Program-made: the position numbers and the translations under genes
Shown: one piece after another, positions 2,154 through 51,911 of the stretch
Numbering within the stretch: position 1 is the first letter of the stretch
Layout: each line of letters begins with the position of its first letter
The notes under the pieces: model-generated
Seen by the model: only the letters and a program-made list of their open reading frames with translations
Databases searched by the model: none
What the model was told of the DNA's origin: nothing
Source of the DNA: Dictyostelium discoideum
Lineage: Eukaryota
DNA length: 64,000 nucleotides
NCBI GenBank assembly: GCA_000004695.1
Contig: CM000150.2
Coordinates: 3,584,001-3,648,000, forward strand
Reading direction: 5' to 3'

Positions 2154-2308
2154 TATTATTATTTTTTTTTTTTATTATTATTTTTTTTTATTATTATTAT
2201 TTTTTTTTTTTTTTTTTTTGTTATTTTAATTTTATTATTTTTTTTTATCTTTGATGCACCATTGGCTATTATCTATATCTTTTAACTAATTTTTTTTTAT
2301 TTTTGGAA

Positions 2309-2323
2309 TTAGTTTAAATTAAG

Positions 2324-2355
<32 letters not shown>

Positions 2356-4840
2356 AATAAATTAACATATAATAAGTGCTTACATTTTTTGTATATTCAC
2401 CCAAAGCACCTATAAGAACGTCATTGGAGTCTATTTTTCCTAGAACATTTTGTTTATTTTCGGTTAAGATAATACAATAGATGAGAAGATCTTGACAACC
2501 TGGAAGATATTTAATGATTTTTGAATCTGGATCGTTTGGATAAGCTTTACATATTTCTTTATTTTTTTCATTGTCTGAGAATTCAAATGGTTCTAATTTC
2601 ATTTGGACTTCTTTCAATTGAATGATGTTTTTATTTGTGCTTAATAACAATTTTGTATAGATTTGTTGAACTAATTTGACAGTTTTTAAATCGACATATA
2701 TCCTATCTGGGAAAGGTGAGACTATTGATGGTACGATAACTTCATTGACTATTTCAATAATTGGATGATCAAATTTATCTAATTCAACATCTGTAAATGT
2801 TGATTCAACATAGATATCTTTAAACAATTGGTAAGATTTGGATTTTTCAAAGCTACAAGTGACATCATTATCATCACATAAAATAATTTCCCCTTTGACT
2901 GATGGAAACACATTGAAATCAAAAAACTCTGATTTGTATTTATTTGTTGTAGTTTGTCCTATAAGTTTAGTTAATAATGGAATATAAACATTTTCATATC
3001 CAAAGTTATATTCATTTGCAAATAATTTATCTTCATTGTAAACGATATTAAATGGATTCAAATGATAGTAGTTTTTATCATCTCCATAACCTTTTACCTT
3101 GGTTTCAAAGTCTAGCTTTCTCTTACCTAAAATTGCTCTGAGATCACTTGGATATTTAGTTATTAATACATTTAAATTCAACTTTTGACCTGCAATGCTA
3201 TTTAATCTTAATGATTCTTTTTTAAGATATTGGTTATCCTCTGGGTGTCTAATAATACTAACTCTCCTGTAAAAGTATTCAGAAAGATATTTCATTTTAT
3301 CACTACAAAAAGCACCACCTCCACGTGCCTCTTGCTTTCCTTGCCAATTTAAATCACCAAAGCATATCATTCCACCACCACCACCGCTACCTACTTTATC
3401 TACATCATTGAATTGATAGGACATTTTTGAATGGTCACTTCCTGAATCAGCCCTAATAACTTTTGACCAAGGTGTTTCGAATCTGTAAGAAATATTAATT
3501 GATTCAACTGCTTGAGTAATTGAATTTCTACCTCTTCCTTTCTTTGTTTGAGTATGGACCATTGTTTTAAAATTATTACCATTTGGTAAATCATTTTTAG
3601 AACTATCGATAAAATGCCAAACTATAAAAAATTTGATTCCATCCTTGTGGGCTTCTTTATTTTTTTCACTATACTCTTTATAAAGGTTTATATTTGTTGT
3701 TTGAATGAAGTATCTTCCTTTATCACTCTCATTAATTTTATAATAGTGAACATTTGTTTCTTTAGGTTTTAGATTTGTATCTGATGATGTAATATCTTTG
3801 TTTAGAATTAAATCTGCCTATTTTAAGAATGTTAGTTTGTAATTAATAAACACAAATTTATAATTAAAATTACTTACCAATTGTGACCATTTATTTAAAT
3901 AAATAACTCCATTCCATATATCAGGATCACCATCATTCTTTTTATTATCAAAAATATATTCACTCATTAGACCATCCAATTCTTTAAAAGTTTTGGGAAT
4001 TTTTGTTGCCAAAATTTTACTATCAATTACATCCAAATCAATGACTCCTGTTTTTTTCTTGTCAACCTCTTCTTTGAGGACTTGAGAATACAAAAACATG
4101 GCTGATGATACCCTTTTTGCTCCAGAACCTGGAGAAACTGTATTAATGGTTTGAATATTTAAATTACCATAAATAATATACTTTGGAATAATATGAAGTT
4201 CTTCTTTTGACAAAGTTATACAAATTGAATGCTGCGCGTGTTGACTCTTTAAAGTATTTTCCTTGAAATTAAAAAGAGGTTTATATCCTGTTTCTGGAGA
4301 ATTTGGAACACTGTGAATTACATGAATTCCCCCTTCTTCATTCCAAATGAAAAATCCTTTTGCATGTGCCTTTTTTAACACATGAAATAAATGAAAAAAA
4401 AAGAATTAACAACAACAAATTATAATAAAAAAAAAAAATAAAAATAAAAATTAAAAATTAACACATACACTATTACCACTATTACTGGGTTGATCATTAT
4501 AGGTCAAACTATTATATATAGTTTTACCAGACTTATTTGGATAACTCTGTATGTATGTTGATGTAATTGGGTTTGGCTCATCTGGATTCCTAATATTATA
4601 ATAAGCTAATTCATTAATCACTGGATTCGCCCCATTTAATTCATTATCAGTATAAATAGCACCTTGACTCTGACTCAATTGTTCTAAAACCCACCATTCA
4701 ACATTCTTTTCTCCATCTTTATCTATAAACACCTGACTTTTTGTATAAACATTTTTTGTTGTTATACATTTTGGAGGAACACAATAAATTTGTGATATTA
4801 ATAAAAATAAATATAGAACTATTATATATTTATTTTTCAT
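2309..4840 (-). CDS. DNase II-family (acid deoxyribonuclease-like) secreted protein, copy A, with a roughly 330-aa C-terminal extension; exons 4840..4469, 4369..3878, 3817..2309
   Basis: Signal-peptide-like N-terminus MKNKYIIVLYLFLLISQIYC. Splice junctions deduced as AGT|GTATGT...AAAAAG|GCACATGC and CAATTG|GTAAGT...AAATAG|GCAGAT, all phase 0, frame verified by coordinate arithmetic. The motifs AHAKGFFIWNEEGGIHVIHSVPNSP and DHSKMSYQF...ICFGDLNWQGKQEARGGGAFC match the two HxK catalytic motifs of human DNase II (GHTKGV..FWLVHSVPNFP and DHSKW..[20 protein letters not shown]). About 330 aa follow the last conserved Cys, with no recognisable domain. Confidence 0.75.
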
Positions 4841-5094
4841 TTCTTAGATATATTGTTTTTTTTTTTATTCTAGCATAAAAAAAAAAAAAAAAAAAAAATG
4901 AGACCGTTTTGTTTCAGAAAAAAAAAAAAAAAAATTGATTTTTTTGTGTGAAAAAAAAAAATGAATCTATTTTTGCACTAAAATCTAAATTTGGATTTTT
5001 TTAAAAAAAAAACGAACGAATTTTTTTTTTATTGTTTTCGAGCATCTCTGCAAATCTTTTTTAATTTTTTTTTTACGAAACAGTTCTAAAATGT

Positions 5095-5126
<32 letters not shown>

Positions 5127-5159
5127 CTCAAAAAAAAATTATTAAATCACAGAATATGT

Positions 5160-7075
5160 TTTTTTTAAATCATATTTAAATTAATAATATCATTTTTATT
5201 TTTTATTTTATATTGCAATTGTTTCACATTTGGTAGTTACACATTTGATACAAAAAATTGGTCAACAAATTGTGCACTATCATCATGTGTTTTTTATGAA
5301 TTTAATAATAATAATTATTATGATTTAAGTTCTATTGTCCACAATGATCATCAAGGTCCTTACAAAGCAAGTTTTCCTGCCGAACTTCCTGGTGGAATTC
5401 AAACACCTTATACAATGTATTTTAATCCTTGTTTTAATGATAATGTGTGTCCAGGTGGTCTTTCAGTAGGTAAATTCACAAAAAATTCTTAATTCCGTTG
5501 GTTCACTTTCAGAGCCACATTCTATAACATTAAATTCAGAAGGTATTTCTATTGAATATCAATCAGCTCTTTTACCATCAACAACATGTACCTCTAATGG
5601 TAACCGTAGAACTTTGGTTTTATTTATTACTTGTATCCCAACCGAAACATTTAAAATTATTGGTACTTATAACAGAAGAGTATTATGTGAACATACAATT
5701 TATATATCTTCAAAATTAGTTTGTAAAGATAGAGGAATATTATTTAATCAAGGTCTATTTTATGATTTAACACCAATGAAATTGTAAGTTGTTAAATTCT
5801 TTTTTATATTTTTTTTTTATTTCAATTTTTTTTTTTTTTTTGTTTTTAATAAAAAAAAAAAACACCAAACACGAAATTTCAAAATAAAAATAAAAATTAA
5901 AATATCTAACCACTTTTTTTTCAATTTTTTATTTTTTTCTTCCCACAGATTAACAAGCACTTCACACCAAATTACCAACAGTGACCAAACACAAGATATT
6001 CTCTTAATTTATTTGGAAATGTAAATAGATGTGGTACTTTCGGTACATCAACATTAAGTTGTCAATCATGTATTTTAACAGTTGCTAATAAAGCGATCGA
6101 TTATAAACTAGATTCAAGATATGCAACATCACCAAAATCAGTTATGGTAGGATCTCTCAGTCAACCAAGAATTACATTTACAAATGATGGAATAACTATA
6201 ATTTATAGCGCAATAGCAGGCTTCACTGAATGCTCATCAAATGGTAACAAATATTCATCAAAGTATATTTTAATTTGTGATCCATTCACAGAATATTATG
6301 TAGATAAATTTACATTAGAATCACAATGTATTTATCAAATTAAGGTTTATACTAAATACGCATGTCCAACATTACGTTTATTCAAACAAACACAATATTA
6401 TGACCTTTCACCATTGATGTTGTAAGTATTCAATTTATTCTTGTATTTCTTCAAACAGTTATTAATTAATAATAAAATAAATAATAGGGATTCAACAAGA
6501 AATTATACAACAAGTCATATTACAGACGGATATGAGTATAATATTGTATTCAATATTGGTAATAAAGCACAAATGTGTAGCGATGCATTTAATGATTATT
6601 ATTTTGCTTGTCAATATGATCCACGTTATAAAAGTTTTATTCCACTTGCAAAGGCAAGTTTAGGTCAAAGAGTAACATTTGATTTAAATCAAGTTAAATT
6701 CGAATATACTTCACCAATGTCAGGTTGTTTAAGAACTTTTATTATTGTTTTAACTTGTGATGAAAACCAACATTATCAATTAGTTTCAACTTTAGAATCT
6801 CCTGCATGTGTATATACAGTAACAATTAAAACTAAATATGTATGTGAATCAACAATTTATTACAATAGATTCGACTATACATATTATGATATTACTCCAA
6901 TAAAAACGTAAGTTTTAAATTAAATTTGAAATTAAATTTAAATATAAATAATAATAATAATAATATTAATAATCTTTATTGTCAACAACTAAAATATTAA
7001 TTTAATTAGAAAAAAAGATAGTCCAAATAAAATAGATATTGATGTTGGTGGATATCCATATAGAGTAAGTAAATT

Positions 7076-7120
<45 letters not shown>

Positions 7121-10100
7121 AACAAATATTTTTCTAATAGCTTTTTTATGGTATCGGTAATACTGTTGATTATTGCGGAGAACAAGTGGGATCAGTCCCT
7201 GGTGTAGATTATCAAGCTTGTCAATATCTCAGTGGTCTTGTTATTCAAGTCGGTAGTTTAAAAAATACATCAATGATTCTTAATAAGGATGGTATAAGTA
7301 TATATCAAACCTCACCATTCGATTTAACCAAAGTGTGCCAAAATACAAGATATCAAAGAGTAAACATTTTAAATATGGTATGTGATCCAACAGCAACAAA
7401 TGATGTGGTTAGCGCTACTGAGACTGCCAACGATTGGGCATGTGAATATACAATCGAAATTAAAACTAAATATGAATGTTCAATTAATTATGCACCAGTA
7501 TTACCGGTTGTTGGAAATCCATGTTCATACAGTTGTACACCACCAGGTGCTTTAAATCCAAAAGATATAGTTAGTGTACTTTTAAATTTAGGTGTTTGTT
7601 CTCAGAGATTAATAAATATGGTACAGGTGCAATCATTACTTAATATATTTAAAGATACTTGGGTTTCAAATCACAATGGGTATGATGATTGGATGGGTGG
7701 ACAACTTTATTCACTATTATTAACAGGTAAACCACAGTCAACAATTTCACCATATGTTATTTCAATTACACATGATAATTTAAGTACATATGGTACCAAT
7801 GGGTTAAGTAAAGCAAAAAATTCAATCAATGATTTTCTTACTATTACAAATGATCTTCTTGAAATTTCAAATCGTGCAGCCAGTTCAACCGTTACCAAAT
7901 ATACATATTCAGATGGAGCAATTACATAAACTTTTATCAACATCAACTGGAGGTCTTGCAATTATTAAATACAAAAATTTGCTATGCTACTATTCAATAG
8001 TCCCAAATTTACAAACTTTAATTATTGGGAGTTATTTGCTTTCTTGCCCATATTATTCACTACCAACTATACAGTGCACAGTTTAACACCATCAATAGGG
8101 AAAGTTGGAGATACTATCACAATTAATGGTCAAAATTTAGATACAGATATATATGATGTTTATTTCAACATTATTGATGACAACAGTAAAATTAAAGCAA
8201 CAATAACATCAAGAACCGTAAGTTTTGTAAAAGTAATTGTTCCAAATGGTTTTGGTTATGCATTAGTCTACACTCAAAATATACTTAATCCAACTACCTC
8301 TGATAAACTTTCATTTTCATATCCATCACCAGCGATTGTCAAAGTAATTAGTCAACCATTTAGTACAGATATCATCAATAGATTCTTTGTTATTGGTCAA
8401 AACCATCGTTCTTTAATAACCAATATTGTTATTAATCCATACATCGATAATATTGAAAAAGAAGCAATTTATTGTGAAATTGTTGTCGGTAAACAAGCGT
8501 CAAAGACTATATATCCAAGTGATTTAGATGAAAATCCAACAAATTATAATTTATATTATTATCCCCCAGCAGTTGTTGACATATCAGAAGTTTCAACTGA
8601 TGGTGGTGAAGTTATAATAAAAGGTACAAATTTTATTCCAGCCTCGCTTAAAGATCAAATTAATAATCAACCAATAATCGGTTCACCACATTCAGTAGAG
8701 TTTAATAATGTTTTATCTTCATCATGGACATGGATTGATTCAACACATGTAGAAGCCATCGTACAAAAAGGTATTGGTACAATCTCTACAATTGTAAATG
8801 TTGGTGGTCAAAGATCTGATTTAAATCCAATTCCTGTAAATTTTTACAAAAGACCTGAACTAGATAATAAAAAATATGAAAACTTTGCAAATAGTGATAT
8901 TTTAATAACTGGTTCTAATTTTGTGCCAGTTGGTTTTTCAGCAGGTTCATCAAGTTCTGTCAAAATTGGAGGTATTCCCTGTAACTCTGTAACATGGGTA
9001 GATTCAAAATCTGTTATTTGTAATGTGCCAATTGGAACTGGTGATAATTTAAATATCATCAAAAAACCGAATTAAATGATTATTTCTCATATTTAGGGCA
9101 ATGCGATTTCCTCTGTAGCGATTTATCAAATTTAGTAAGTTTTTAAACATTTTAATTACAGAAAAAAAAAAAAAAACTAAAAAATACTAATTTATTATCA
9201 TTTTTATCTCAAAGGAATTAGCAAAAGTTATTAGAGAGAATAAAAAAGATTTAAAGAGTACTCTTTTATTAACAGGTGTATGTTTAGAACAAATCGAGCA
9301 ATATAATTTCACAGATATTAATGATGAAATTGAATCAAGTTGGATTGAAAACTCAATTATTAATGATTGGACAAGTGGTAAATTCTATAATTATTTTAAA
9401 TCATCAGAATCATACTCAACAGTTAAAACACTTGCAAAATATATTACTCCAAAGAATCCATGTATTTATGATAATAAAAGAGTAAAGAATTCATTAGATT
9501 ACCATTTTGAAATCAATTCAGATATTTTCCATTTAATTGAACTTTCAATTTCATCAAAAATCAGTTATCCAGATTCACCATATGAAACTTATTTCTATGA
9601 ATCATCAAGCAACCCAGAGTATGGTCTTTCAATTATTACATTTGATTCAGCAATTTGTAGCTTTACAGAATCAACTATTCAAGACTATCAAAGTGGAAAA
9701 GAATTACAATCATGTTCAATCATTCCAATTATAAATCAAGTAATTAATCCAACAACAACACTTCAAGCACCATATCAATATTCACTTACAATTATTGGTA
9801 GATTATTTGATAGTTCAACTAGAATATTTTTATCAGGTTATGAATGTCCAATCATTGGTAATATCGCTACTAATCAAAATGATTATATTCAAACTCTTAG
9901 TTGTTCAGTACCACCAGAAATCGAATCATACTCGCCCTCTCAAATTAGTTTTTACAATGATTATAGTGAAAATAATATATAGAATATGAAGATGGATCTG
10001 ATGAAATTGTTGTTAAATTTAATAATGAACCAACAGCTATCATTGAAAACACAGAAACATACATTAAAATTAAAACCCTTAGTGGTGATGAATTTAATGT

Positions 10101-11487
10101 ACCAATTGCTGTAGAATTAAACGGTCAAATAAGTAATACAGATACTTCATTCGTTTACTCAAATCCAATAATTGAAAGTGTAACACCATCATCAAGTAGC
10201 TCAAAATCAAATACTAATATCATCATTAAAGGACAAAATCTTGGATATTTAACAAACACTCCCAAAATTACAATTGGAAGTAGTAATTGTTTAAATATCA
10301 AAACTATATCTCCAAATGAAATTCATCGTTATGAAATCAAGCGCAGGCACTAAACAATTAACATTAACCTATGAAAGTTATCAACCAACCTATTCACAAT
10401 TCACTCACAAAAACGATGATGACAGTGATAGCCACGATGATGATGATGATGACCATAAAAACAATAATGGACCAAAAAACACCATATTAAGTATTCTTGG
10501 AGGTATAATTGGAGCAGCAGCATCAGCGGCCGTAAGTGGATTTATAACAAGCATTTTCGGTGGTGCGACATCAGTAGCTACAGCAGCAGCAACAGCAACA
10601 GCTATTGCCGGTGCAATTACCGAAGGTGTTGCAGTGGCCTTTACAGGGGTATCAGTAATAGCAGCAACAGCAGGTGGTATTGTTATTACTTCAATTGTAA
10701 CAGCAACAGCCATCCTTATTTCAGGTGGAAGTACACAATCACCAAACCCAACGCCAACCGATAACTATTGGGTAAGATGTATGGTCGATTATTCAAGATT
10801 AACTTTACAAGTCGATAATCTTTACGGTCAAGATATAGTATGGATTGATGGTAATGGAATTTCATCAATTTTCAAAGAATCATTCTCTTGTAAACCTGAC
10901 CTTATTAACGATGGTATGATATGCACTCAACAACATCAAAATGGAACAAATTCAACAACCACATTTGGTAATTCAACATTAATTTGTCATATTGACCCAA
11001 CAAAATCATGTGAAATTTCACCACCATTCATCATACCATCCGATCCAATTGAAGATGATGAATATTCAAATATTTTAGAATGTCAATATAATCTCATTGA
11101 AAATTCATTATCAACACACTCTAATAATAGTCCATTAAGATGTTATAATAATGAAACTGAAAATTACTTCACTATGAATACTACACTTTCATGCTCAAAA
11201 GATGAATCATTAAGTCAAGATAAATATACGATTTCTTGTTTATCAGATACAGATGATACCCAAATCTTTTTCTATAAGAACTCAATTACATGCATTACAG
11301 ATTATCCATACTATAAATGTACAATAAAAATTAGTTAACGACTGGAACTAATGCTGAATGTCCAAAAAATGAAAAAGAACTTCATTATGATCTTTCAACT
11401 TCTCTAACATGCACAGATTATATCACACTTAAAAACTCCACTTATTCAATTTCATATTCAAATTACATTTGCATTAAAACAAAATAA
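5160..11487 (+). pseudogene. Decayed copy A of the giant MRH-lectin/IPT-TIG gene, with multiple frameshifts and a roughly 3.1-kb internal deletion
   Basis: Aligns exon by exon to copy B (15415..25732). Exon 1 has a roughly 20-bp deletion near 5460 and a degraded start. Exon 2 carries 1-bp and 3-bp deletions. The exon-5 equivalent has -1/-2 compensating indels near 7600, a 10-bp deletion at 7927 (frame break at ORF 7186..7929) and a roughly 23-bp deletion at 9060. At about 9980 the sequence jumps from the copy B position 20900 to 24035, so most TIG repeats of the last exon are lost. The tail has a further deletion. ORF fragments 6144..6425, 6441..6911, 7186..7929, 7984..9075 and 10316..11338 sit in different frames. 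Confidence 0.7.
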
Positions 11488-11849
11488 AAACAATTAAAAA
11501 ATTTTAAAAAACAAAATGATATAATAATTTAATGAAATAATTTAATTACTATTTTTACTATTTTTATTTTCGAAAAACTGTAATTAAATTATTTCATTAA
11601 ATCATTATGTCACACCACCCAAAATTCAATTCTGAAAACTTTTTTTTTTATTTAATTACCCTTAATAAAAAATTAAATGTGAAAATAAATGTTATATTTA
11701 TTTTAGTATTGTTTTTTTTTTTTATTTCTTAGTGCACCATTTGGTTTTATCTAATTTTGAAAACTAAAAAAAAAAAAAAAATTTATTTTTGGAATTAGTT
11801 AAATTTAAAAAAAAATAAATTTTTGGGATAGTTAAATTTAAAAAAAAAT

Positions 11850-13990
11850 TTAAATTAAAATATAATTAATACTTACATCTTTGGTATATTCACCCAAAAC
11901 TTTTGTAAATTCCTCAATGGAATTGATGTTTTGTAGATCACCATGTTTATTTTCAGTTAAGAGAATACAATAGATAAGATGATCTTGGCAATCTGGATGA
12001 TAATTAATGATTTTTGAGTCTGTATCACTTGGATAAGCTTTACATATTTTTTTATTAATTTCATTGTAATCCTTATCATCATGACCTTCTTCGCTATCAC
12101 TTTGATCGCCTTCGATTTTATTTGGGAATTTAAATGGTTCTAAATCATCTTTGATTTTAACTTCTTTCAATTGAATGATGTTTTCATTTTTAATAAATTT
12201 CAATTTTTTATAAAGTTCTTTTACTAAATCAATATTTTTTAAATCGATATATATCTTATCTGGGAAAGGTGCGAGTATTGATGTTGGTTCGATAACGGTA
12301 TTTTGTGTTATAGCAGTTATCGTTTCTTTACCATCTTTATTTTTTGATGAGGTAACTGTTAATGTTGATTCAACATAGATATCTTTAAACAATTGGTAAG
12401 ATTTGGATTTTTCAAAGCTACAAGTGACATCATCATTATCATCACATAAAATAATTTCCCCATTGATTGATGGAAACACATTGAAATCGAATAACTCTGA
12501 TTTGTATTCATTTGTAGTTTGATCCTTAAGTTGAGTTAATAATGGAATGTAAACATTGTCATAACCATAGTTATATTCATTTGAAAATAATTTATCTTCA
12601 TCTTTTTCATTATTGTAAACGATAATAAATGGATTCAAATGATAGTATTTTTCATCATCTCCATAACCTTTAACCTTGGTTTCAAAGTCTAACTTTCTGT
12701 TACCTAAAATTTTATTTAGATCCTTTGGATATTTAGCTATTAATCCGTTTAAATTCAACTTTTGACCTGCAATGCTATTTAATCTTAATGATTCTTTTTT
12801 AAGATATTGATTATTCTCTGGGTGTCTAATTATACCAACTCTTCTATAAAAGTATTCAGAAAGATATTTCATTTTATCACTGCAAAAAGCACCACCTCCA
12901 CGTGACTCTTGCTTTCCTTGCCAATTTAAATCACCAAAGCAAATAGTCCCACCACCGCCACCGCTATCTACTTTATCTATATTATTGAATTGATAAGAAA
13001 TTTTTGAATGGTCACTTCCTGAATCAGCACTAATAACTTTTGACCAAGGTGTTTCGAATCTGTAAGAAAGATAAATTGATTCAACTGCTTGAGAAATTGC
13101 ATTTTCACCTTTTGTAATCTTTGTTTGAGTATGGACCATTGTTTTAAAATTATTACCATTTTTAAAATTATCTATATAATGCCAAATTATAAAAAATTTA
13201 ATTTTTTCCTTGTGAGTTTCTTCAATTTTTTCATTATACTTTTTATAAAGGTTTTTATTTGTTGTTTGAATGAAGTAATCCCCTTTATTTTTACTCTCAT
13301 AAATTTTATTATAGTGAACATTTGTTTCTTTAGGTTTTAGAGTTAAATCTGATGATGTAATATCTTCGTTTAGAATTAATTTTGCCTATTTTAAGAATGT
13401 AAGTATGATGATTTATTAACACAAATTTATAATTAAAATTACTTACCAATTGTGACCATTTATTTAAATAAATAATTCCATTCCATATATCAGGATCACC
13501 ATCATTCTTTTTTTTAACCAAAATATAATCACTCATTAGACCATCCAATTTTTTAAAAGTTTTGGGAATTTCTTTTGCTAAATTTTCAATTACATCCAAA
13601 TTAATGACTCCTGGGCTTATCTTTTCAACCTCTGTATGGAGATTTTCGGAATAAAGATTGGCTGATGATACCTTTTTAGCCTTTTTACCAAGTCCTGTTG
13701 AAACTGTATTAATGGTTTGAATATTTAAATTACTATAAATAATATACTTTGGAATAATATGAAGTTCTTCTTTTGACAAAGTTATACAAATTGAATGTTG
13801 AGCATGTTGATTATTTAAAGTATCTTTGTCGTAATTAAAAAGAGGTTCATATCCTGTTTCTGGAGATTTTGGAACACTGTGAATTACATGAATTCCCCCT
13901 TCTTCATTCCAAATGAAAAATCCTTTTGCATGTGCCTTTTTTAAATAAATAAATTAAAAAAAAAAAATATGTTAACAAATAATGATAACC

Positions 13991-14021
<31 letters not shown>

Positions 14022-14413
14022 AAATAATAAACACAAACACTATCGGAACCACCACTGATCTGATCATTATAAGTCAAACTATTATATATAATTTTTTTAG
14101 ATTCATTTGGTAAACTCTGTTTGTATGTTGATGTAATAGGGTTTGGTTCTTTTGGATCTCTAATATTATAATTTGCAATTTCATTTATCTCTGAACTTCC
14201 TCCTTTTAATGTGTTATCAGTATAAATAGAACCTTTACTGTGACCTAATTGTTCTAAAAACCACCATTCGACATTCTTTTCTATTGTAACCCCATCCCCA
14301 AATACTTGACCATCCTTGTAAATATTTTTTGTTGTTATACATTTTGGAGGAACACAATAAATATGTGATATTAATACAAATAAATATAGAAAAATAATAT
14401 ATTTATTTCTCAT
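11850..14413 (-). CDS. DNase II-family secreted protein, copy B; exons 14413..14039, 13935..13447, 13385..11850
   Basis: Same three-exon structure as copy A. MRNKYIIFLYLFVLISHIYC signal peptide; AHAKGFFIWNEEGGIHVIHSVP; DHSKISYQF...ICFGDLNWQGKQESRGGGAFC; C-terminal extension ends ...EYTKDVSINYILI. Exon 1 donor is GTTTGT, shared with copy C. Frames checked by arithmetic (375, 489 and 1536 nt). Confidence 0.75.
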
Positions 14414-14483
14414 TTTCTTAAGTCTAATGTTATAATGTTTCAATTTTTTAATGGTATAAAAAAAAATTGGGTGTGTTTTTGCG

Positions 14484-14514
<31 letters not shown>

Positions 14515-14879
14515 GCTTTGTTGTCAACAAAGAAAAAAACCTAAAATTGGATCATTTAAAATAAAATAAAAAAACGAACGAAAATATTTTTTTTTAATCG
14601 TTTTTAGATGATTTTCCCACTTCTTTGATTATTGAAAATCTTTTAAATATTTTAGATTTTTTTTTTTATTTTTTTCGACCCATTATTTAATAAAAAAAAA
14701 AAATTATAAAAATTACCCCCACAAACCGTTTAGTTTTTTTTTTTTTTTCACAAAGCCTGGTTTTTATTTTTTTTGACACTTTTTAGCTTTGCATCTTTAT
14801 CGCTTTAAATACGTAAAATACAACATTTTTTTTAAAAAAAAAAAAAAAGTATGGTTAAAAAAAAAAAAAAATCATACTG

Positions 14880-15075
14880 AAATTAAAAAAAAAATGGTAA
14901 AATTTAAAATAGTTATATCATTTTTATTATTTATTTTATATTTTAATTGTTTCACATTTGGTAGTCATGTGTTTTTTATATTAATACAAATAAATATAAA
15001 AAAATAATATATTTATTTCTCATTTAAATTTTTTAATGGTAAAAAAATTGGGTGTTTTTTGTGAAAAAAAAAAAA
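14880..15075. other. Rearrangement scar: partial tandem duplication of the bidirectional promoter region, fusing 72 bp of the giant-gene start (MVKFKIVISFLLFILYFNCFTFGS) to the inverted DNase II start region
   Basis: 14893..14964 repeats the exon 1 start found at 15415. The sequence then continues as 'tcatgtgttttttatattaatacaaataaatataaaaaaataatatatttatttctcat', which is the reverse complement of the DNase II-B start and upstream region (14370..14540). The motif 'aaacgaacgaaaat...aatcgtttttagatgatttt' occurs at both about 14565..14650 and 15155..15240. The chimeric ORF 14789..15007 comes from this scar. Confidence 0.6.
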
Positions 15076-15414
15076 AAATAGCCTTTTTGTGAAAAAAAAA
15101 GAAAAAAAAAAATCTAAAATTGGATCATTGAAAAAATAAAATAAAAAACGAACGAAAATTTTTTTTTAATCGTTTTTAGATGATTTTTCCACTCCTTTTA
15201 TTATTGAATCTTTTTGAACATTTTTCTACCGCTTGGTTTTTTTTTTTTTTACAAAGCTTTGCTAGTTTTTATTTTTTTTTTACACTTTTTAGCTTTGCAT
15301 CTTTAAAACTTTAAAATACGTTTTGGAAAATACTATATTTTTTTTTTTCAATCAACCACACTCTTTTTTTTTTTTTTTTTAAAAAAAATAATCATATTGA
15401 AATTAAAAAAAAAA

Positions 15415-17250
15415 ATGGTAAAATTTAAAATAGTTGTATCATTTTTATTATTTATTTTATATTGTAATTGTTTCACATTTGGTAGTTACACATTTGATAC
15501 AAAAAATTGGTCAACAAATGGTACACTATCATCATGTGTTTTTTATGATTTTGTAAATAACGATTATTATGATTTAAGAGCTATTGTCATACCTGATCAT
15601 CAAGGTGCTTACAGAGCAAGTTTCACAGCTGAACTTTCTGGTGGAATTCAAACACCATATACAATATATTTTAATCCTTGTTTTAATGATCATATGTGTC
15701 CAGGTGGTCTTTCAGTAGGTTGTACTTTTATTGTACAAAATTCACAAAGAGTTCTTAATTCTGTTGGTTTACTTTCAGAATCTCATTTTGTTACATTTAG
15801 AACAGATGGTATTACTATTAAATATCAATCAGCTCTTTTACCATCAACAACATGTGCCTCTAATGGTAACCGTAGAACTATGATTTTAGTTATCACTTGT
15901 GATCCAAATGAACCATTTAAAGTTACAAGTACTTATAACAGAAGAGTGTTATGTGAACATACAATTTATATCGCTTCAAAATTAGTATGCAAAAATAGAG
16001 GAGTATTATTTAATCAAGGTCTATTTTATGATTTAACACCAATGAAATTGTAAGTTATTTAATTCTTTTTCATATTTATTTTTTTTTATTTTTTTTTTTT
16101 TAAAATAATTATCCAAAAATAAAAAAAAAAAAAAAAGGATCAAACACGAAATTTCAAAATAAAAAAATCTAATCTTTTTTCACTTTTTTTTATTTTTTTT
16201 TAATTTTTTTATTTTTATTTTTTTTTCCCACAGATTAACAAGCACTTCACACCAAATCACCAATGATGACCAAACAAAAGATATTCTCTTTAATTTATTC
16301 GGAAATGTAAATAGATGTGGTACTTTCGGTACATCAACATTAAGTTATCAATCATGTATTTTAACAGTTGCTAATAAAGCGATCGATTATAAACTAGATT
16401 CAAGATATGCAACATCACCAAAATCAGTTATGGTAGGATCTCTCAGTCAACCAAGAACAATTACATTTACAAATGATGGAATAACTATAATTTATAGTTC
16501 AACAACTGGTTTCACAGAATGCTCATCAAATGGTAACAAATATTCATCAAAGTATATTTTAATTTGTGATCCATTCACAGAATATTATGTAGATAAATTT
16601 ACATTAGAATCACAATGTATTTATCAAATTAAGGTTTATACTAAATACGCATGTCCAACATTACGTTTATTCAAAGAATCACAATATTATGACCTTTCAC
16701 CATTGATGTTGTAAGTATTCAATTTAATTAAAAAACCTTTTTAATGTTTTATTCTTGCACTTCTAACAATTATTAATAATAAAATAAATAATAGGGATTC
16801 AACAAGAAATTATACAACAGGTCATATTACAGGCGGATATGAATATAATATTGTATTCAATATTGGTAATAAAGCACAAATGTGTAGCGATGCATTTAAT
16901 GATTATTATTTTGCTTGTCAATATGACCCACGTTCTAAAAGTTTTATTCCACTTGCAAAGGCAAGTTTAGGTCAAAGAGTAACATTTGATTTAAATCAAG
17001 TTAAATTCGAATATACTTCACCAACAACAACTAGTTGCCCATTAAATTCCAATAAAAGAACTTTTATTATTGTTTTAAATTGTGATGAAAACCAACATTA
17101 TCAATTAGTTTCAACTTTAGAATCTCCTGTATGTGTATATACAGTAACAATTAAAACTAAATATGTATGTGAATCAACAATTTATTACAATAGAATTAAT
17201 ACTACCTTTTATGATATTACTCCAATAAAAACGTAAGTTTTAAATTAAAT

Positions 17251-17336
<86 letters not shown>

Positions 17337-20300
17337 CTTTATTAACAACCAAAACTATTAATTTTAATTAGAACGAAAGATAGTCCAAAAACTGTAGATA
17401 TTGTTGTTGGTGGATATCCATATAAAGTAAGGGATAATTTTTAAAATTTTTTTTTTTTTTGTTTTTTTTTTTTTAAACAAACATCAAACGTGTCAAACTG
17501 AAATTTAAATATTTTATGTATATATTTAAAAATATTTACTAACTTTACTTTATTAATTTTTTATAACAGCTTTATTACAGTATAGGTAATACTGTTAATT
17601 ATTGTGCAAATCAAGTGGAGTCAGTTCCAGGGGTTGATTATCAAGCTTGTCAATATCTCAGCGGTCTTGTTATTCAAGTCGGTAGTTTAAAAAATACATC
17701 AATGTATCTAAGTAATAATGGTATAAATATATATCATACTACACCATTTGATTTAACCAGAGTATGCCAAAATACAAGATATCAAAGAGTGAACTCTTTA
17801 AATATGGTATGTGATACAACAGCAATAAACGTTGTGGTTAGCGCGACTGAGACTGCCGATGATTGGGCATGTATATATACAATCGAAATTAAAACCAAAT
17901 ATGCATGTCCAATTAATTATGCACCAGTATTGCCAGCTGTTGGAAATCCATGTTTATACAGTTGTACACCACCAGGTGCTTTAAATACAAAAGATATAGT
18001 TAGTGTACTTTTAAATTTGGGCGTTTGTTTCTCAGAGATTAATAAATATGGTACAGGTGCACAATCATTACTTGGTATATTCAACAATACTTGGGTTTTA
18101 AACCACAATGGATATGATGATTGGATGGGTGGACAACTTTATTCACTATTATTAACAGGTAAACCACAAACATCGATTTCACCATATGTTATTTCAATTA
18201 CACATGATAATTTATGTACATATGGTACCAATGGGTTAAGTAAAGCAAAAAATTCAATCAATGATTTTCTTACTATTACAAATGATCTTCTTGAAATTTC
18301 AAATCGTGCAGCCAGTTCAACCGTTACCAAATATACATATTCAGATGGAGCAATAACATTATCAACACATAAACTTTTATCAACATCAACTGGAGGTCTT
18401 GCAATTATTAAATACAAAAATTTGCTATGCTACTATTCAATAGTTTCAAATTTACAAACTTTAGTTATTTCGAATTATTTGCTTTCATGTCCATATTATT
18501 CACCAACCATTACATTGTACAGTTTAACACCACCAACAGGGAAAATTGGAGATACTATCACAATTAATGGCCAAAATTTAGATACAAATAGATATGATGT
18601 TTATTTCAACATAATTGACGACAACAGTAAAGTCAAAGCAACAATAACATCAAGAACCGTAAATTCTGTAAAAGTAATTGTTCCAAATGGTTTTGGTAAT
18701 GCATTAGTCTACACTCAAAATATACTTAATCCAACTACCTCTGATAAACTTTCATTTTCATATCCATCACCAGCGATTGTCAAAGTAATTAGTCAACCAT
18801 TTAGTACAGATATCATCAATAGATTCTTTGTTATTGGTCAAAACCATCGTTCTTTAATAACCAATATCACCATTTATCCATACATCGATAATATTGAAAA
18901 AGAAGCAATTTATTGTGAAATTGAAAAGTATTGTCCAAGTTCATCAAAAATTCCATCAATTCCAGAATCAGCAGTAGGTCATCCATGTATTAATTCAACA
19001 GTTTACTCTGAGAATTCCCAGTTTTTCGATTATTCCAAGTATGATGTTTTTGTTTGTATCAAATCATCATTAGGTGTTGGAAGTGGTATCATTAAATTCC
19101 CATCACAAACATTTACATTTGCATACTCTTATAAAGCACCTCTCTTATATTATACACAACCTGGCATTCGTATTCCAACCGATGGTGGTAGTTTTCAATT
19201 GAGTGGTAAAAACTTTCCACCAACACAAGAAATCATTGATCTCGGTTTAAACACATCTGTAATCATTTGGAATAATGATAATTTTGTTACATTCAAAGGA
19301 ACAAATCTTACAAGCACCAATATCAATTGGAAGAGTTCTAAATCGATTTTATGTGTTGCACCACCAGGTTTCGGTGGACCATTCATCGTTACGGTAACTG
19401 TCGGTAAACAAGCGTCAAAAACTATATATCCAAGTGATTTAAATGAAAATCCAATAGATTATTATTTATATTATTCTCCACCAACTTTGCTCGACATATT
19501 AGCAGTTCCAACTGATGGTGGGGAAACTATAATAAAAGGTACAAATTTTATTCCAGTCTCGCTTGCAGATCAAATTAATAATCAATCATTAATTGGTTCA
19601 CCAAATTCAGTCACGTTTAATAATGTTTTATCTTCATCATGGAAATGGATTAACTCAACACATGTAAAAGCCATCGTACAAAAAGGTATTGGAGCAATCC
19701 TTACAATTGTAAATGTTGGAAGCCAAAGTACTGAAACGAGTCCATATCCCGTAATTTTTTATAAACAACCTGAATTAGATAATAAAAAATATGAAAACTT
19801 TGCAAATAGTAATATTTTAATAACTGGTTCTAATTTTGTACCAGTTGGTGTTTCAGCAGGTTCATCAAGTTCTGTCAAAATTGGAGGTATTCCTTGTAAC
19901 TCTGTAACATGGGTAGATTCAAAATCTGTTATTTGTAATGTACCAATTGGAACTGGTGATAATTTAAATATCCAAGTAACAGTTGGAGGTCAACAAACCG
20001 AATTAAATGATTATTTCTCATATTTAGGGCAATGCGATTTCCTCTGTAGCGATTTATCAAATTTAGTAAGTTTTTAAACATTTTAATTACAGAAAAAAAA
20101 AAAAAAACTAAAAAATACTAATTTTTTACATTATAATCTCAAAGGAATTAGAAAAAGTTATTAGAGAAAATAAAAAAGATTTAAAGAGTACTCTTTTATT
20201 AACAGGTGTATGTTTAGAACAAATCGAGCAATATAATCTCACATATATTAAAAATAAAATTGAATCAAGTTGGATTGGAAGTTCAATTATTAATGATTGG

Positions 20301-25732: not shown

Positions 25733-26345
25733 AAACAATTAAAATAATTTTTAAAAAAAAATAAAAAATAAAATGAGATAATGGTTTTATCAATAATTTA
25801 ATTTGATACAAAATTCATTTTTAGTGTTTTTACATGTATAACATTTTAATTATTGTTTACTAATATTAATATTAATTATTCCTCTGAATATTTCTAATTA
25901 ATTTTAATTTTTTGAATAAAAAAACTAAATTAACCTTTTTGTAACATTCAAGAGGTCAAGTTATAGCTAACTATCCAATTAATACTTTATTAATAGTAAT
26001 AGTAAAGGTAAAAGAAAAATTAAAAATGAAATAGAAAAACTAGAAAAAGATAAACAGGATGAAATTAAAAATTAAAAAAATGATAAATTCAATGGTTTAA
26101 ATCAAAAAGAATAATTAGAAAATCTGGCTACAGTAATTCAATTATGGCAACCATCTTCATATTTTCAAGCTTCATTTTTTTATTTGATTAACCATTAAAA
26201 AATAATTAAATGTGAAAATAAATGTGATATTTATTTTAAAATAGAATTTTTTTTTTTTTATTTCTTAATGCACCATTTGGTTTTATCGAATTTTGAAAAC
26301 TAAAAAATTTTATTTTTGGAATTAGTTAAATTTTAAAAAATTAAA

Positions 26346-28888
26346 TTAAAATAAAATATATTTAATACTTACATCTTTGGTATATTCACCCAAAACTTTT
26401 CTAAACTCTTCAATGGAATCGATATTTTGTAGATCACCATGTTTATTTTCTGTTAAGAGAATACAATAGATAAGATGATCTTGGCAATCCGGATGATAAT
26501 TAATGATTTTTGAATCTGTATCACTTGGATAAGCTTTACATATTTTTTTATTAATTTCATTATAATCCTTATCATCATGACCTTCTTCGCTATCACTTTG
26601 ATCGCCTTCTTTTGGGAATTTAAATTTTTCTAAATCTTCTATATTGACTTCTTTCAATTGAATGATGTTTTCATTTTTTTTAAAATTCAATTTTTCATAG
26701 AGTTCTTTAACTGAATTCACAGTTTTTAAATCGATATATATCTTGTCTGGGAAAGGTGTGACTGTTGATGTTGGTACAACAATTGTATTTTCTGTTTCAT
26801 CTTTTACACTTTTATCTTTTTTTAAAGTAACTGTTAATGTTGATTCAACATAGATATCTTTATACAATTGGTAAGATTTGGACTTTTCAAAGCTACAAGT
26901 GACATCATTATCATCACATAAAATAATTTCCCCATTGATTGATGGAAACACATTGAAATCAAAAAACTCTGATTTGTATTTATTTGTTGTAGTTTGATCC
27001 TTAAGTTGGGTTAATAGTGGAATATAAACATTGTCATAACCATAATTATATTCATTTGAAAATAATTTATCTTCATCTTTTTCATTATTGTAAACGATAA
27101 TAAATGGATTCAAATGATAGTATTTTTCATCATCTCCATAACCTTTAACCTTGGTTTCAAAGTCTAGCTTTCTGTTACCTAAAATTTCTTTGAGACTATT
27201 TGGATATTTAGTTATTAATCCGTTTAAATTCAACTTTTGACCTGCAATGCTATTTAATCTTAATGATTCTTTTTTAAGATATTGATTATTCTCTGGGTGT
27301 CTAATTATACCAACTCTTCTGTAAAAGTATTCAGAAAGATATTTCATTTTATCACTACAAAAAGCACCACCTCCACGTGCCTCTTGCTTTCCTTGCCAAT
27401 TTAAATCACCAAAGCAAATAGTCCCACCACCGCCACCACTATCTACTTTATCTATATTATTGAATTGATAAGAAATTTTTGAATGGTCACTTCCTGAATC
27501 AGCACTAATAACTTTTGACCAAGGTGTTTCGAATCTGTAAGAAAGATAAATTGATTCAACTGCTTGAGAAATTGCATTTTCACCTTTTGTAATCTTTGTT
27601 TGAGTATGGACCATTGTTTTAAAATTATTACCATTTTTAAAATTATCTATATAATGCCAAATTATAAAAAATTTAATTTTTTCCTTGTGAGTTTCTTCAA
27701 TTTTTTCATTATACTTTTTATAAAGGTTTTTATTTGTTGTTTGAATGAAGTATCTCCCTTTATCACTTTCATAAATTTTATTATAGTGAACATTTGATTC
27801 AAGAGGATTTAGAGTCGGGTTTGATGATGTAATTTCTTGGTTTAGAATTAATTCTGCCTATTTTTTAAGAATATTAGTTTGGTAATTTAAAAACACAATT
27901 TTAAAAATATAAATTTCTTACCAATTGTGACCATTTATTTAAATAAATAACTCCGTTCCATATATCAGGTTCATTTCCAACAATAATATGGTCCTTCATT
28001 AGGTTATCCAATTCAATAAAAGTTTTGGGAGGTTCAATTTTACTATTAATTGTTTCCAAATTAATGACATTTTGGTTCTTACGGTCAAGCTCAGTTTTGA
28101 GGTATTCTGAATAAGAATTGGCTGATGATACCCTTTTTACCTTTTTAAAAACTGTATTAATGGTCCGAATATTTAAATTACTATAAATAATATACTTTGG
28201 AATAATATGAAGTTCTTCTTTTGACAAAGTTATACAAATTGAATGTTGAGCATGTTGATTATTTAAAGTATGTTTGTCGTAATTAAAAAGAGGTTCATAT
28301 CCTGTTTCTGGAGATCTTGGAACACTGTGAATTACATGAATTCCCCCATTTTCATTCCAAATGAAAAATCCTTTTGCATGTGCCTTTTTTTAGATAAATA
28401 AAAAAAATAAAAAAAAAATAAAAATATTAGAAAACTATTAACAACAAATAATAATCAAAAAAAAAAAAAAAAAAAAAAAAAAAGATAAAATAATTAACAC
28501 AAACACTATCATCACCATTACTGGGTTGATCATTATAAGACAAACTATTAAATAAAATAGCACCAGATTCATTTGGTATACTCTGTTTGTATGTTGATGT
28601 AATCGGGTTTGGTTTTGTTGTATTTGGATCTCTAATATTAAAATCAACTATTTCATTAATCTCTGAATTCATTTCTTTTAATGTGCTATCAGTATAAATA
28701 GCACCTTTACTGTGACTCAATTGCTCTAAAAACCACCATTCCACATTCTTTTCTTTAGAATCTCCATCTCCAAATACCTGACTATCCTTGTAAACATTTT
28801 TTGTTGTTTTACATTTTGGAGGATCACTACAATAAATCTGTGATATTATTACAAATAAATATAAAAATATTATATATCTATTTCTCAT
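26346..28888 (-). CDS. DNase II-family secreted protein, copy C; exons 28888..28505, 28383..27922, 27857..26346
   Basis: Same structure as copies A and B: MRNRYIIFLYLFVIISQIYC; AHAKGFFIWNENGGIHVIHSVP; DHSKISYQF...ICFGDLNWQGKQEARGGGAFC. Exon 2 is the most diverged and is 27 nt shorter than in B. The C-terminal extension is closely similar to B. Confidence 0.7.
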
Positions 28889-28944
28889 GTTATTATTTTT
28901 GTTTTATTTATTTTAATATAAAAAAAAAAAATTATTTATATATA

Positions 28945-29015
28945 AAAAAAAAAAGAGTACAGTTGAGAAAAAAAAAAGAGTACAGTTGAGAAAAAAAAAA
29001 GAGTACAGTTGAGAA
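28945..29015. repeat. Three tandem units of a 25-bp motif, aaaaaaaaagagtacagttgagaaa
   Basis: Direct tandem repeat visible in the sequence, immediately upstream of DNase II-C on the divergent side. Confidence 0.85.
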
Positions 29016-29524
29016 AAAAAAAAAAAATTACAATCGATTTGCATCAAAATCAAAATTTTAATCTTAAAAAAAAACAAAAAATTATTTTCCTAATGTTTTT
29101 TTGATTTTAAAGAGATAATTTTTCTTTCTTTTTTTTTCAAAATGCAAACTAAAAAAATTTTCGTTTGTTTTTTTTTTTTTTATATCACAAAATATCGAAC
29201 GGGCACGAGCAAAAAAAAAGCAAGGAGGTGTCTCGAAAAAAAAAATTGTGTTGAGAAATGCAACAATTTTTTTTATTGGTACCCATTACTTCATTAGCAT
29301 CAAGTCCACTTCTCCATACGATAAAAAAAAAAAAAAAAAAAAAAAAAAGGGATCGCTAATTTTTAAAAGAGAAAAAAGTGTTGTTGCTCCACTAAAAAAA
29401 TAAATATATTTTTTTTTTAGAAAAAGATGGTACTTGTTTTGTGAATGAAAATTTTTTTTTTTCTTTTTTTTTTTTTATTTTTTTTTTTTTTTATTTTTTT
29501 TTTTTTGATCATTTTTTTTTAACA

Positions 29525-31579: not shown

Positions 31580-31753
31580 AAATAAAAAAAACTAATAATT
31601 TAAAAAAAAAAAAAAAAAACTTAAATCAATTGACAAATATAACCCAATTAGAATGAAGTTAAGGAAAATTTTTAAAAATGGAAATTGCTTTTTTTTTTTT
31701 TTTTTTTTTTAATTTTATTTTAATTTTTTAACATCCAACAGTCTTAAAAATTT

Positions 31754-32036: not shown

Positions 32037-32146
32037 AATTTTGATAAAAATCTTACTATTATTTTTTTTTTTTTTTTTTTTTTTAAAAATAAAAGAGAAT
32101 TAATTGTTTATGAAAAATTACGTTGTAAAAAAAAAAAAAAAAAAAA

Positions 32147-49883: not shown

Positions 49884-51911
<2,028 letters not shown>

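What the first reader, a model, noticed from the sequence alone, without database searches (positions are those of the whole stretch)
2309..4840. DNase II paralogs carry a long, conserved but unassignable C-terminal extension
In all three copies the second catalytic motif (DHSK...GGGAFC) is followed by roughly 330 more residues. Canonical DNase II ends about 60 aa after that motif. The extension is conserved between copies B and C, for example ...ICKAYPSDTDSKIINYHPDCQDHLIYCILLTENKHGDLQNI..., with a variable acidic insert. It is AT-codon-typical but not low-complexity. It may be a new targeting, inhibitory or interaction module fused to an otherwise active-looking nuclease; the signal peptide and both HxK motifs are retained.
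Basis: partly seen in the sequence, partly recalled or inferred. Interest (0 to 1): 0.6.

Follow-up and report, generated by a model that had tools for sequence, protein, structure and literature searches.

The report
DNase II with orphan C-terminal domain
Three tandem Dictyostelium genes encode secreted-type DNase II enzymes with intact catalytic motifs, each followed by a roughly 310-residue folded, cysteine-braced tail that matches no known domain and was found only in this genus; it is a real lineage-specific add-on whose role is untested.

Summary
The window is Dictyostelium discoideum DNA. It carries three minus-strand, four-exon paralogs of 782, 804 and 790 aa. Copy A is 100% identical to DDB_G0270642.

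After the last DNase II helix come 308-333 more residues, inside the same exon as the second motif. This extension is not low-complexity. It has six conserved cysteines and is usually acidic. AlphaFold models it confidently, and the full-length pTM is 0.82.

No test placed the extension in a known family:
- Pfam and PDB sequence or profile searches found nothing.
- It does not match the DNase II domain itself.

A profile search of 1.84 billion proteins found it only in Dictyostelium, and always fused to DNase II.

I read it as a rigid, non-catalytic accessory region. Whether it regulates, targets or docks a partner cannot be settled here.

Seen in passing: the genes lie in a tandem triplication, head-to-head with MRH/TIG receptor-like genes, and that pairing recurs at distant paralog loci.

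Verdict: a new variant of a known kind, of moderate interest.

The parts
2235..4840 (-). Copy A gene (DDB_G0270642), 4 exons: 4840-4469, 4369-3878, 3817-2384, 2285-2235 (including the stop codon); 782 aa
   Evidence: Splice model. The protein is 100% identical over its full length to P0001, DDB_G0270642.
4781..4840 (-). Copy A N-terminal hydrophobic signal-peptide-like segment (residues 1-20, MKNKYIIVLYLFLLISQIYC)
   Evidence: This is the only Kyte-Doolittle window above 1.6 in the whole protein. It is modelled as helix 2-19. No SignalP run was possible.
3260..4780 (-). Copy A DNase II catalytic domain (residues about 21-474, interrupted by two introns). It is enlarged by about 110 residues between the two HxK motifs.
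4358..4366 (-). First catalytic HxK motif of copy A (H126-A-K128, within AHAKG)
   Evidence: Coordinates. H126 and K128 are invariant in 37 sequences. The motif aligns to GHTKG of Burkholderia DNase II.
3425..3433 (-). Second catalytic HxK motif of copy A (H417-S-K419, within DHSK)
   Evidence: Coordinates. Invariant in 37 sequences. It aligns to DHAK of 5i3e.
2384..3259 (-). Copy A C-terminal extension, main part (residues 475-766). It lies in the same exon as the second catalytic motif and contains conserved C602, C609, C711, C729 and C736.
   Evidence: AlphaFold block pLDDT is mostly 65-90.
2235..2285 (-). Copy A terminal mini-exon (residues 767-782 plus the stop codon), with the last conserved cysteine, C776.
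   Evidence: Splice model. It matches the database protein exactly. The equivalent exon is conserved in B and C.
11722..12836 (-). Copy B extension (residues 472-804; exon 3 part 12836-11877, an intron, then exon 4 at 11763-11722). It includes the acidic insert at 12113-12060 and the quoted peptide at 12047-11925.
   Evidence: The protein is identical to ACTFIT_007548.
26258..27311 (-). Copy C extension (residues 465-790; exon 3 part 27311-26373, an intron, then exon 4 at 26299-26258). It includes the acidic insert at 26609-26556 and the quoted peptide at 26543-26421.
   Evidence: The protein is identical to ACTFIT_007547.
11722..14413 (-). Copy B gene, 804 aa
26258..28888 (-). Copy C gene, 790 aa

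Best explanation
Each of the three genes encodes a soluble, signal-peptide-bearing DNase II with an intact two-HxK, phospholipase-D-type active site. It should therefore cut DNA by the usual covalent-histidine mechanism in an acidic lumenal or extracellular compartment. This step is inferred from family membership.

The 308-333 residues that follow are a genuine folded protein region found only in the genus Dictyostelium, within what was searched. The model shows a small alpha/beta part, a beta-rich part and a helical part. Six conserved cysteines (three possible disulfides) probably hold it together.

The region is joined to the last DNase II helix without a flexible linker and is predicted to pack against the catalytic domain as one body. 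It has no catalytic-looking conserved residues and is usually acidic.

The most likely role is therefore a non-catalytic accessory region that controls what the nuclease meets, through protein-protein docking, oligomerisation or shielding of the basic catalytic domain. An extra DNA-binding or enzymatic module is less likely. The domain's existence and novelty are shown. Its role is inference.
For: Real and translated:
- It lies in the same exon as the second catalytic motif in all three copies.
- The models are identical to independently annotated proteins.
- It is retained in 34 full-length relatives from D. discoideum, cf. discoideum, citrinum, dimigraforme, firmibasis and purpureum.
- dN/dS between B and C is 0.33 in the extension.

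Folded and integrated:
- The extension alone gives pLDDT 72.9 and pTM 0.72.
- Full-length A gives pLDDT 78.7 and pTM 0.82. Helix 464-472 runs straight into strand 474-478, and R472 and V474 are invariant.

No known domain:
- Pfam.
- PDB sequence and profile searches.
- hhalign against the DNase II domain gives only the 13-residue overlap built into both alignments.
- No internal repeat.
- Foldseek against PDB best E 0.16.

Always in cis with DNase II and restricted to the genus:
- An exhaustive profile search of 1.84 billion representatives gave 6 hits. Every hit carries a Dictyostelium species name in the source records and places the extension after residue 424-466.

Structural rather than catalytic conservation:
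- The near-invariant extension positions are G498, E526, C602, C609, C711, D731, L733 and C736.

Acidic:
- The computed extension pI is between 4.5 and 6.2 in 30 of 34 members, against 5.7-9.1 for the catalytic domain.

Active enzyme:
- H126, K128, H417, K419 and R453-G-G are invariant.
Against: - There is no experimental or expression evidence for any member. No paper mentions these gene IDs.
- I could not inspect model coordinates or PAE. 'Packs against the catalytic domain' rests only on the pTM value.
- Four of 34 members have a basic extension, so the charge argument is not universal. Part of the acidity comes from variable inserts and tails.
- dN/dS of A against B or C is 0.7-1.1 in both the domain and the extension. 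This could mean relaxed constraint rather than function.
- The alignment behind the models is shallow (15-37 sequences from one genus).
- The AlphaFold-database fold library was unavailable, so a structural relative among unsolved proteins is not excluded.
Confidence: 0.55

Rival explanations
1. Built-in inhibitor or pro-domain. The acidic extension masks the basic nuclease or its DNA-binding cleft during transit through the ER and Golgi. It is clipped off or released in the acidic endolysosome or phagosome, which activates the DNase.
For: - The extension is acidic in most members while the catalytic domain is mostly neutral to basic.
- It is always in cis with the nuclease.
- A lower-confidence loop at about 481-490, just after the junction, could be a processing site.
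- From general knowledge: many nuclease inhibitors (barstar, colicin Im proteins) are acidic, and Dictyostelium lysosomal hydrolases are made as larger precursors.
Against: - The junction has no flexible linker and is conserved (R472, V474).
- DNase II is already restrained by its acid pH optimum.
- Six conserved cysteines and a 310-residue three-part fold are more than a typical pro-peptide needs.
- Four members have basic extensions.
Confidence: 0.18
2. Docking handle for the neighbouring receptor. The extension is the surface through which each DNase II-long protein binds the large MRH-repeat/TIG-repeat membrane protein encoded head-to-head next to it. That binding would give sorting to lysosomes or phagosomes, or display at the cell surface.
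For: - In all three window units the divergent neighbour carries MRH-type (PRKCSH_1/ATG27/CIMR-like) and IPT/TIG domains.
- Homologs of that neighbour lie head-to-head upstream of distant (about 30% identical) family members in L001, L005, L006 and L007.
- Both products carry secretory-pathway features.
- The last third of the extension evolves fastest, as expected for a co-evolving interface.
Against: - The pairing is absent within 10 kb at three D. purpureum loci and one D. firmibasis locus, all of which still have the extension.
- Shared synteny may simply be inherited from duplication of a block.
- MRH domains bind glycans, yet most extensions have no N-glycosylation sequon.
- There is no co-expression or binding evidence.
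Confidence: 0.1
3. Intramolecular clamp or oligomerisation element. The extension takes the place of, or reinforces, the second protomer of the U-shaped DNase II dimer, shaping the DNA-binding groove.
For: - Burkholderia DNase II is an intertwined homodimer forming a U-shaped clamp (PMC5449587).
- The high full-length pTM (0.82) suggests a fixed position of the extension relative to the catalytic domain.
- The extension never occurs apart from the nuclease.
Against: - An acidic surface is a poor DNA partner.
- The extension has no similarity to the DNase II fold.
- Coordinates could not be inspected.
Confidence: 0.1
4. The tail is a decaying or annotation-derived stretch with no function of its own, for example read-through or a fused neighbouring gene.
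For: - dN/dS is near 1 for A against B or C in the last third.
- The tail diverges faster than the catalytic domain: 20% against 35% identity among distant members.
Against: - It is a continuous ORF in the same exon as the catalytic motif.
- It is conserved in length, cysteine pattern and predicted fold across 34 proteins and at least five named species.
- dN/dS between B and C is 0.33.
- The splice sites of the terminal mini-exon are conserved.
Confidence: 0.03

Closest known systems
Canonical DNase II (human DNASE2; Burkholderia thailandensis DNase II, PDB 5I3E/5UNB; Pfam PF03265)
   Same: - Signal-peptide-type N-terminus.
- Two HxK motifs with the GD(L/I/M)N...RGGG segment.
- Pfam 141 bits.
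   Different: - About 780-800 aa instead of about 350-360.
- An extra 308-333-residue C-terminal region of unknown fold.
- About 110 extra residues between the two catalytic histidines.
- The Trp after the second HxK (DHSKW; W282 in the Burkholderia enzyme) is replaced by M, I, L or F.
Expanded secreted DNase II-like families of parasites (Trichinella spiralis, about 125 predicted genes; plancitoxin-1-like, PMC4148230)
   Same: - Lineage-specific multiplication of DNase II genes with signal peptides.
- Rapid divergence.
   Different: That paper describes no comparable C-terminal region. The Dictyostelium extension profile hit nothing outside Dictyostelium among 1.84 billion proteins.
Other PLD-superfamily nucleases (PLD3/PLD4 lysosomal exonucleases, Nuc, TDP1)
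   Different: These are different families. Their accessory parts show no detectable similarity to the extension.
Generic beta-sandwich and beta-barrel modules (PapC usher C-terminal domain, FN3, C2; TTM/CYTH; Med18/20)
   Different: - Scores are below the level that implies homology.
- RMSD is large (up to 12 A).
- The TTM and Mediator hits were not reproduced with the extension-only model.
- There is no ExExK signature.

Membership tests
DNase II (PF03265) | Significant match to the family HMM | tested here: met
   6.3e-41, 141.1 bits against a gathering cutoff of 23, covering residues 43-378 plus a second stretch. All 41 word-index hits carry PF03265.
DNase II (PF03265) | Two HxK catalytic motifs (H100/K102 and H279/K281 in the Burkholderia enzyme) | tested here: met
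   A has H126/K128 and H417/K419, and B and C have the equivalents. These residues are invariant in 37 sequences. They align to GHTKG and DHAK of 5i3e. The motif definition comes from PMC5449587.
DNase II (PF03265) | PLD-type alpha/beta fold like the solved DNase II | tested here: met
   [not shown]
DNase II (PF03265) | Conserved Trp after the second HxK (W282) stacking with R298 | tested here: not met
   The family has DHSK followed by M, I, L or F. The Arg of RGGG (R453) is invariant. The feature is taken from PMC5449587.
DNase II (PF03265) | Single-domain architecture of about 350 aa, ending about 60-70 residues after the second motif | tested here: not met
   363-388 residues follow the second catalytic lysine.
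DNase II (PF03265) | Metal-independent endonuclease activity at acid pH | not testable with these tools
   This needs a recombinant enzyme assay.
Secreted or lysosomal protein | N-terminal signal peptide and no other membrane segment | tested here: met
   In copies A and B the only hydrophobic window (KD19 above 1.6) lies at residues 3-8 onward. There is none in the extension, and the C-terminus is hydrophilic. Copy C has no window above 1.6 (N-terminal maximum 1.49). This is a heuristic; SignalP was not available.
Any Pfam domain (for the extension) | A match above or near the gathering score, recurring in several members | tested here: not met
   The best hits are single and sub-threshold (E 0.006-0.7). 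No family was hit by more than 2 of 15 members.
Third PLD/DNase II-like repeat (for the extension) | Profile-profile similarity to the DNase II domain | tested here: not met
   hhalign of alignment A2 against A3 gives only the 13-residue overlap deliberately shared by both alignments.
[not shown]
   [not shown]

The most novel reading that the evidence does not exclude
The extension is the docking surface that couples each DNase II-long enzyme to the giant MRH-repeat/TIG-repeat membrane protein encoded head-to-head beside it. The two would form a nuclease-receptor cassette that duplicates as a unit. Such a cassette could be a lysosomal or phagosomal enzyme-sorting system in an organism for which, to my knowledge, no mannose-6-phosphate-type sorting receptor has been identified. 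Alternatively it could be a surface-displayed nuclease effector tied to a rapidly evolving recognition protein in social amoebae.
Probability: 0.08. Interest if true: 0.75.

Novelty: new variant of a known kind. Interest (0 to 1): 0.42.

Why it matters
DNase II is normally a compact single-domain lysosomal enzyme. Here a whole multigene family in a bacterivorous, social amoeba carries a large, confidently folded C-terminal region with no detectable relative anywhere else. At least eight D. discoideum AX4 gene models belong to the family, some of them truncated.

If the region regulates, sorts or docks the nuclease, it would show how an old hydrolase is re-tooled for lineage-specific jobs such as digesting prey DNA, handling extracellular DNA traps or dealing with neighbours. 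It would also add a new fold or domain family to the catalogues.

The recurrent head-to-head pairing with MRH/TIG receptor-like genes gives a concrete, testable lead. By itself, though, the finding is an orphan domain on an uncharacterised paralog family, so the interest is moderate.

Tried and rejected
1. Known domain. Pfam scans of A, of the A and B extensions, and of all 15 aligned extensions gave only isolated sub-threshold hits: DUF3882, Trypan_glycop, DUF1776 and others.

2. PDB by sequence (phmmer) gave only a spurious eL27 match at E 0.46. PDB by profile gave nothing at E up to 10.

3. The extension as a degenerate DNase II or PLD repeat is rejected by hhalign.

4. An internal repeat within the extension is rejected.

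6. Wider homologs. Two word-index searches (extension profile, DNase II-domain profile) and one exhaustive HMM search found nothing outside Dictyostelium. Canonical DNase II sequences were not retrieved by the word index, so I could not date the acquisition of the extension against other dictyostelids.

7. Literature. There is no paper for any of the gene IDs. DDB_G0270640 (rrgB) is an unrelated gene.

8. CaaX reading of the C-terminal CIKK/CTKK in B and C is rejected. It is not conserved in A (CIKDKKK) or in distant members, and it is irrelevant for a lumenal protein.

9. TM or GPI anchor in the extension: no hydrophobic segment.

Full report
**What is in the window.** The DNA is very AT-rich (GC 0.16-0.41 in 2-kb windows). 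Three minus-strand loci share the same three long ORF pieces.

Reading the minus strand gave four-exon models with GT...AG introns of 60-121 nt:
- A: exons 4840-4469, 4369-3878, 3817-2384, 2285-2235; 782 aa.
- B: exons 14413-14039, 13935-13447, 13385-11877, 11763-11722; 804 aa.
- C: exons 28888-28505, 28383-27922, 27857-26373, 26299-26258; 790 aa.

Model A is 100% identical over 100% of its length to 'hypothetical protein DDB_G0270642 [Dictyostelium discoideum AX4]'. B and C are letter-for-letter ACTFIT_007548 and ACTFIT_007547 of another D. discoideum assembly. The AX4 models for the same loci are DDB_G0270958 (806 aa) and DDB_G0270644 (808 aa), and they differ slightly. The gene models are therefore independently corroborated.

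**Checking the observation.**
- The first motif AHAKG is at A 125-129, at the start of exon 2.
- The second motif DHSK is at A 416-419, B 413-416 and C 406-409.
- GGGAFC follows, and 323, 348 and 341 residues come after it.
- The solved Burkholderia DNase II chain has 358 residues with its DHAK near 285, so a canonical enzyme ends about 70 residues after the motif.
- The quoted peptide and the acidic insert EGDQSDSEEGHDDKDYNE are in B and C. A lacks the insert.
- Windowed sequence entropy of the extension equals that of the catalytic domain, so it is not low-complexity.

The true C-terminus is a 16-residue mini-exon (2285-2238, stop at 2237-2235) with a conserved cysteine. Second, the catalytic domain is itself enlarged. 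Its two catalytic histidines are 291 residues apart, against 179 in the Burkholderia enzyme.

**The nuclease part.**
- Pfam gives DNase_II at 6.3e-41 and nothing else.
- In a 37-sequence family alignment, H126, K128, H417, S418, K419 and R453-G-G are invariant. C25, C440 and C459 are also invariant and C174 is nearly so.
- A profile of the domain aligns both motifs to the Burkholderia enzyme.
- In copies A and B the only hydrophobic segment is the N-terminal one; copy C's N-terminal maximum falls just below the cutoff.

One departure from the family: the Trp that follows the second HxK in canonical enzymes is M, I, L or F here.

I conclude these are bona fide, probably active, secretory-pathway DNase II paralogs. 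Activity itself is inferred.

**The extension.** It begins right after the last DNase II helix (464-472, with invariant Y465, L466, Y469, R472 and V474). It continues as a beta-strand with no linker.

Modelled alone with 15 sequences it gives pLDDT 72.9 and pTM 0.72. In the full-length model most 10-residue blocks score between 65 and 90. The predicted order is:
- a small alpha/beta part (about 475-560);
- a beta-rich part with a long hairpin (about 570-650);
- a helical part (about 659-765).

Near-invariant positions are G498, E526, C602, C609, C711, D731, L733 and C736. C729 and the last-exon cysteine are also widely conserved. Nearly every full-length member has six cysteines in the extension. 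This is a structural, not a catalytic, conservation pattern.

The extension is acidic in 30 of 34 members (computed pI between 4.5 and 6.2). The catalytic domain's pI is 5.7-9.1. N-glycosylation sequons are mostly absent from the extension.

**Is it a known domain?** Every test was negative:
- Pfam on single sequences and on all 15 aligned extensions.
- PDB by sequence and by profile.
- Profile-profile comparison against the DNase II domain, which found only the 13 residues deliberately shared by both alignments.
- Internal repeat search.
- Foldseek against PDB, best E 0.16 with TM about 0.1.

**Distribution.**
- Word-index searches with full-length A, the extension profile and the domain profile returned only Dictyostelium proteins. 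Most are 708-834 aa and cover 92-99% of A. A few are longer (948 and 1054 aa) and some are fragments. The species are D. discoideum, cf. discoideum, citrinum, dimigraforme, firmibasis and purpureum.
- An exhaustive HMMER search of 1.84 billion cluster representatives with the extension profile gave six hits. All are Dictyostelium, and all place the extension after residue 424-466.
- That set includes a divergent 661-aa member whose sequence carries the DNase II motifs.

So the extension was not found alone or with another partner. It has not been found outside this genus, within the reach of a one-genus profile.

AX4 gene IDs recovered for the family are DDB_G0270642, 0270644, 0270958, 0270848, 0270706, 0270476, 0267616, 0291033 and 0290837. 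Some of them are truncated models.

A separate AX4 transcript (XM_630570.1) has been used in the literature as 'the' D. discoideum DNase II (PMC4148230 supplement). I could not retrieve it to compare lengths.

**Evolutionary rates.**
- Among distant paralogs the extension keeps 20% identity to A, against 35% for the catalytic domain.
- Nei-Gojobori estimates give dN/dS 0.33 for the extension between B and C.
- For A against B or C they give 0.66-1.10 in the extension segments and 0.68-0.85 in the catalytic domain. The highest values are in the last third of the extension.

The family is therefore evolving fast, under either relaxed or diversifying selection, while keeping catalytic residues, cysteines and reading frames intact.

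**How it most likely works.**
- Shown: a real, folded, genus-restricted region fused without a linker to an intact DNase II.
- Inferred: it is a non-catalytic accessory region. Conservation is structural, it never travels independently, and it is predicted to sit in a fixed position on the enzyme.
- Its usual acidity argues against a DNA-binding add-on.
- Its acidity fits shielding of the basic nuclease or protein docking.

I give about 0.55 to this general reading. Narrower variants are listed as rivals: auto-inhibitory pro-domain (0.18), docking to the neighbouring receptor (0.10), clamp or oligomerisation element (0.10), and non-functional tail (0.03).

**Context seen on the way.** Self-comparison shows three tandem units, 2576-11329, 12123-25459 and 26613-42079, at 82-97% nucleotide identity. 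Each unit is a DNase II-long gene on the minus strand, head-to-head with a large plus-strand gene. That gene carries MRH-type (PRKCSH_1/ATG27/CIMR-like) repeats and up to ten IPT/TIG domains.

Homologs of that neighbour lie in the same head-to-head position at distant family loci:
- L001, the DDB_G0291033 locus.
- L007, the P0016 locus, with a 4314-aa gene carrying CIMR/ATG27 and TIG hits.
- L005 and L006, in D. dimigraforme.

They are absent at one D. firmibasis locus and three D. purpureum loci. The pairing may be inherited synteny or a functional couple. It motivates the 'novel case' but does not prove it.

**Verdict.** The finding is correct and survives its own refutation tests. It is a DNase II paralog family with an orphan C-terminal region, so a new variant of a known kind. 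No publication on these genes turned up in the searched library. Interest is moderate (0.42): the novelty of the domain is well supported, and its function is open.

Noticed in passing
window 2576-11329, 12123-25459, 26613-42079: There are three tandem copies of a unit 9-15 kb long, at 82-97% nucleotide identity. Each is a DNase II-long gene (minus strand) plus a large plus-strand gene. Unit A's plus-strand gene lacks about 3 kb that is present in units B and C.
   Followed up: partly
window 5169-11335, 15307-25732, 32129-42352 (+ strand); L001 1162-9512, L007 196-9395, L005 5110-7580, L006 6269-9452 (- strand): The gene head-to-head with each DNase II-long copy encodes MRH-type (PRKCSH_1/ATG27/CIMR-like) repeats plus many IPT/TIG domains. 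Homologs occupy the same divergent position next to family members only about 30% identical to A. They are absent at three D. purpureum loci and one D. firmibasis locus.
   Followed up: partly
window copies A/B/C coding sequence: dN/dS between A and B or C is 0.66-1.10 in both the catalytic domain and the extension, highest in residues 641-782. Between B and C it is 0.33 in the extension and 0.68 in the domain. This means fast evolution or relaxed constraint in a young tandem family.
   Followed up: partly
window 3434-4357 (copy A residues 129-416): The DNase II domain itself carries about 110 extra residues between the two catalytic histidines, compared with the Burkholderia enzyme. The canonical Trp after the second HxK is replaced by M, I, L or F throughout the family.
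   Followed up: partly
P0021-P0039 (distant subfamily; e.g. DDB_G0291033, DDB_G0290837, DDB_G0267616): After the last conserved cysteine these members have a Pro-rich stretch. It is followed by a conserved acidic C-terminal peptide (for example ...IDEVMESQA.DD....SMNDL..) that is absent from A, B and C, which end in WCIKDKKK, WCTKK and WCIKK.
   Followed up: no
P0032 (KAM9993409.1, D. cf. discoideum, 661 aa): This is the most divergent member found. It keeps AHAKG and EHAK but lacks the RGGG segment after the second motif, while still carrying the cysteine-patterned extension.
   Followed up: no
window copies B and C versus AX4 annotation: The AX4 protein models for these loci (DDB_G0270958, 806 aa; DDB_G0270644, 808 aa) differ in length from the 804- and 790-aa models. 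The latter are exact matches to another strain's annotation, so the likely cause is different splice choices.
   Followed up: no
[not shown]
   Followed up: no
window 44624-46222 (-), 47591-49444 (+), 49884-51911 (+): Other genes in the window are a CAF1B/HIR1-type WD40 beta-propeller protein and two FNIP-repeat proteins, one with a B-box zinc finger.
   Followed up: no
window 54001-60000: This stretch has unusually high GC for the window (up to 0.41) and strong GC skew (+0.17 to +0.32) and AT skew (-0.27 to -0.40). It coincides with several long minus-strand ORFs at 55054-59904. I did not examine it.
   Followed up: no
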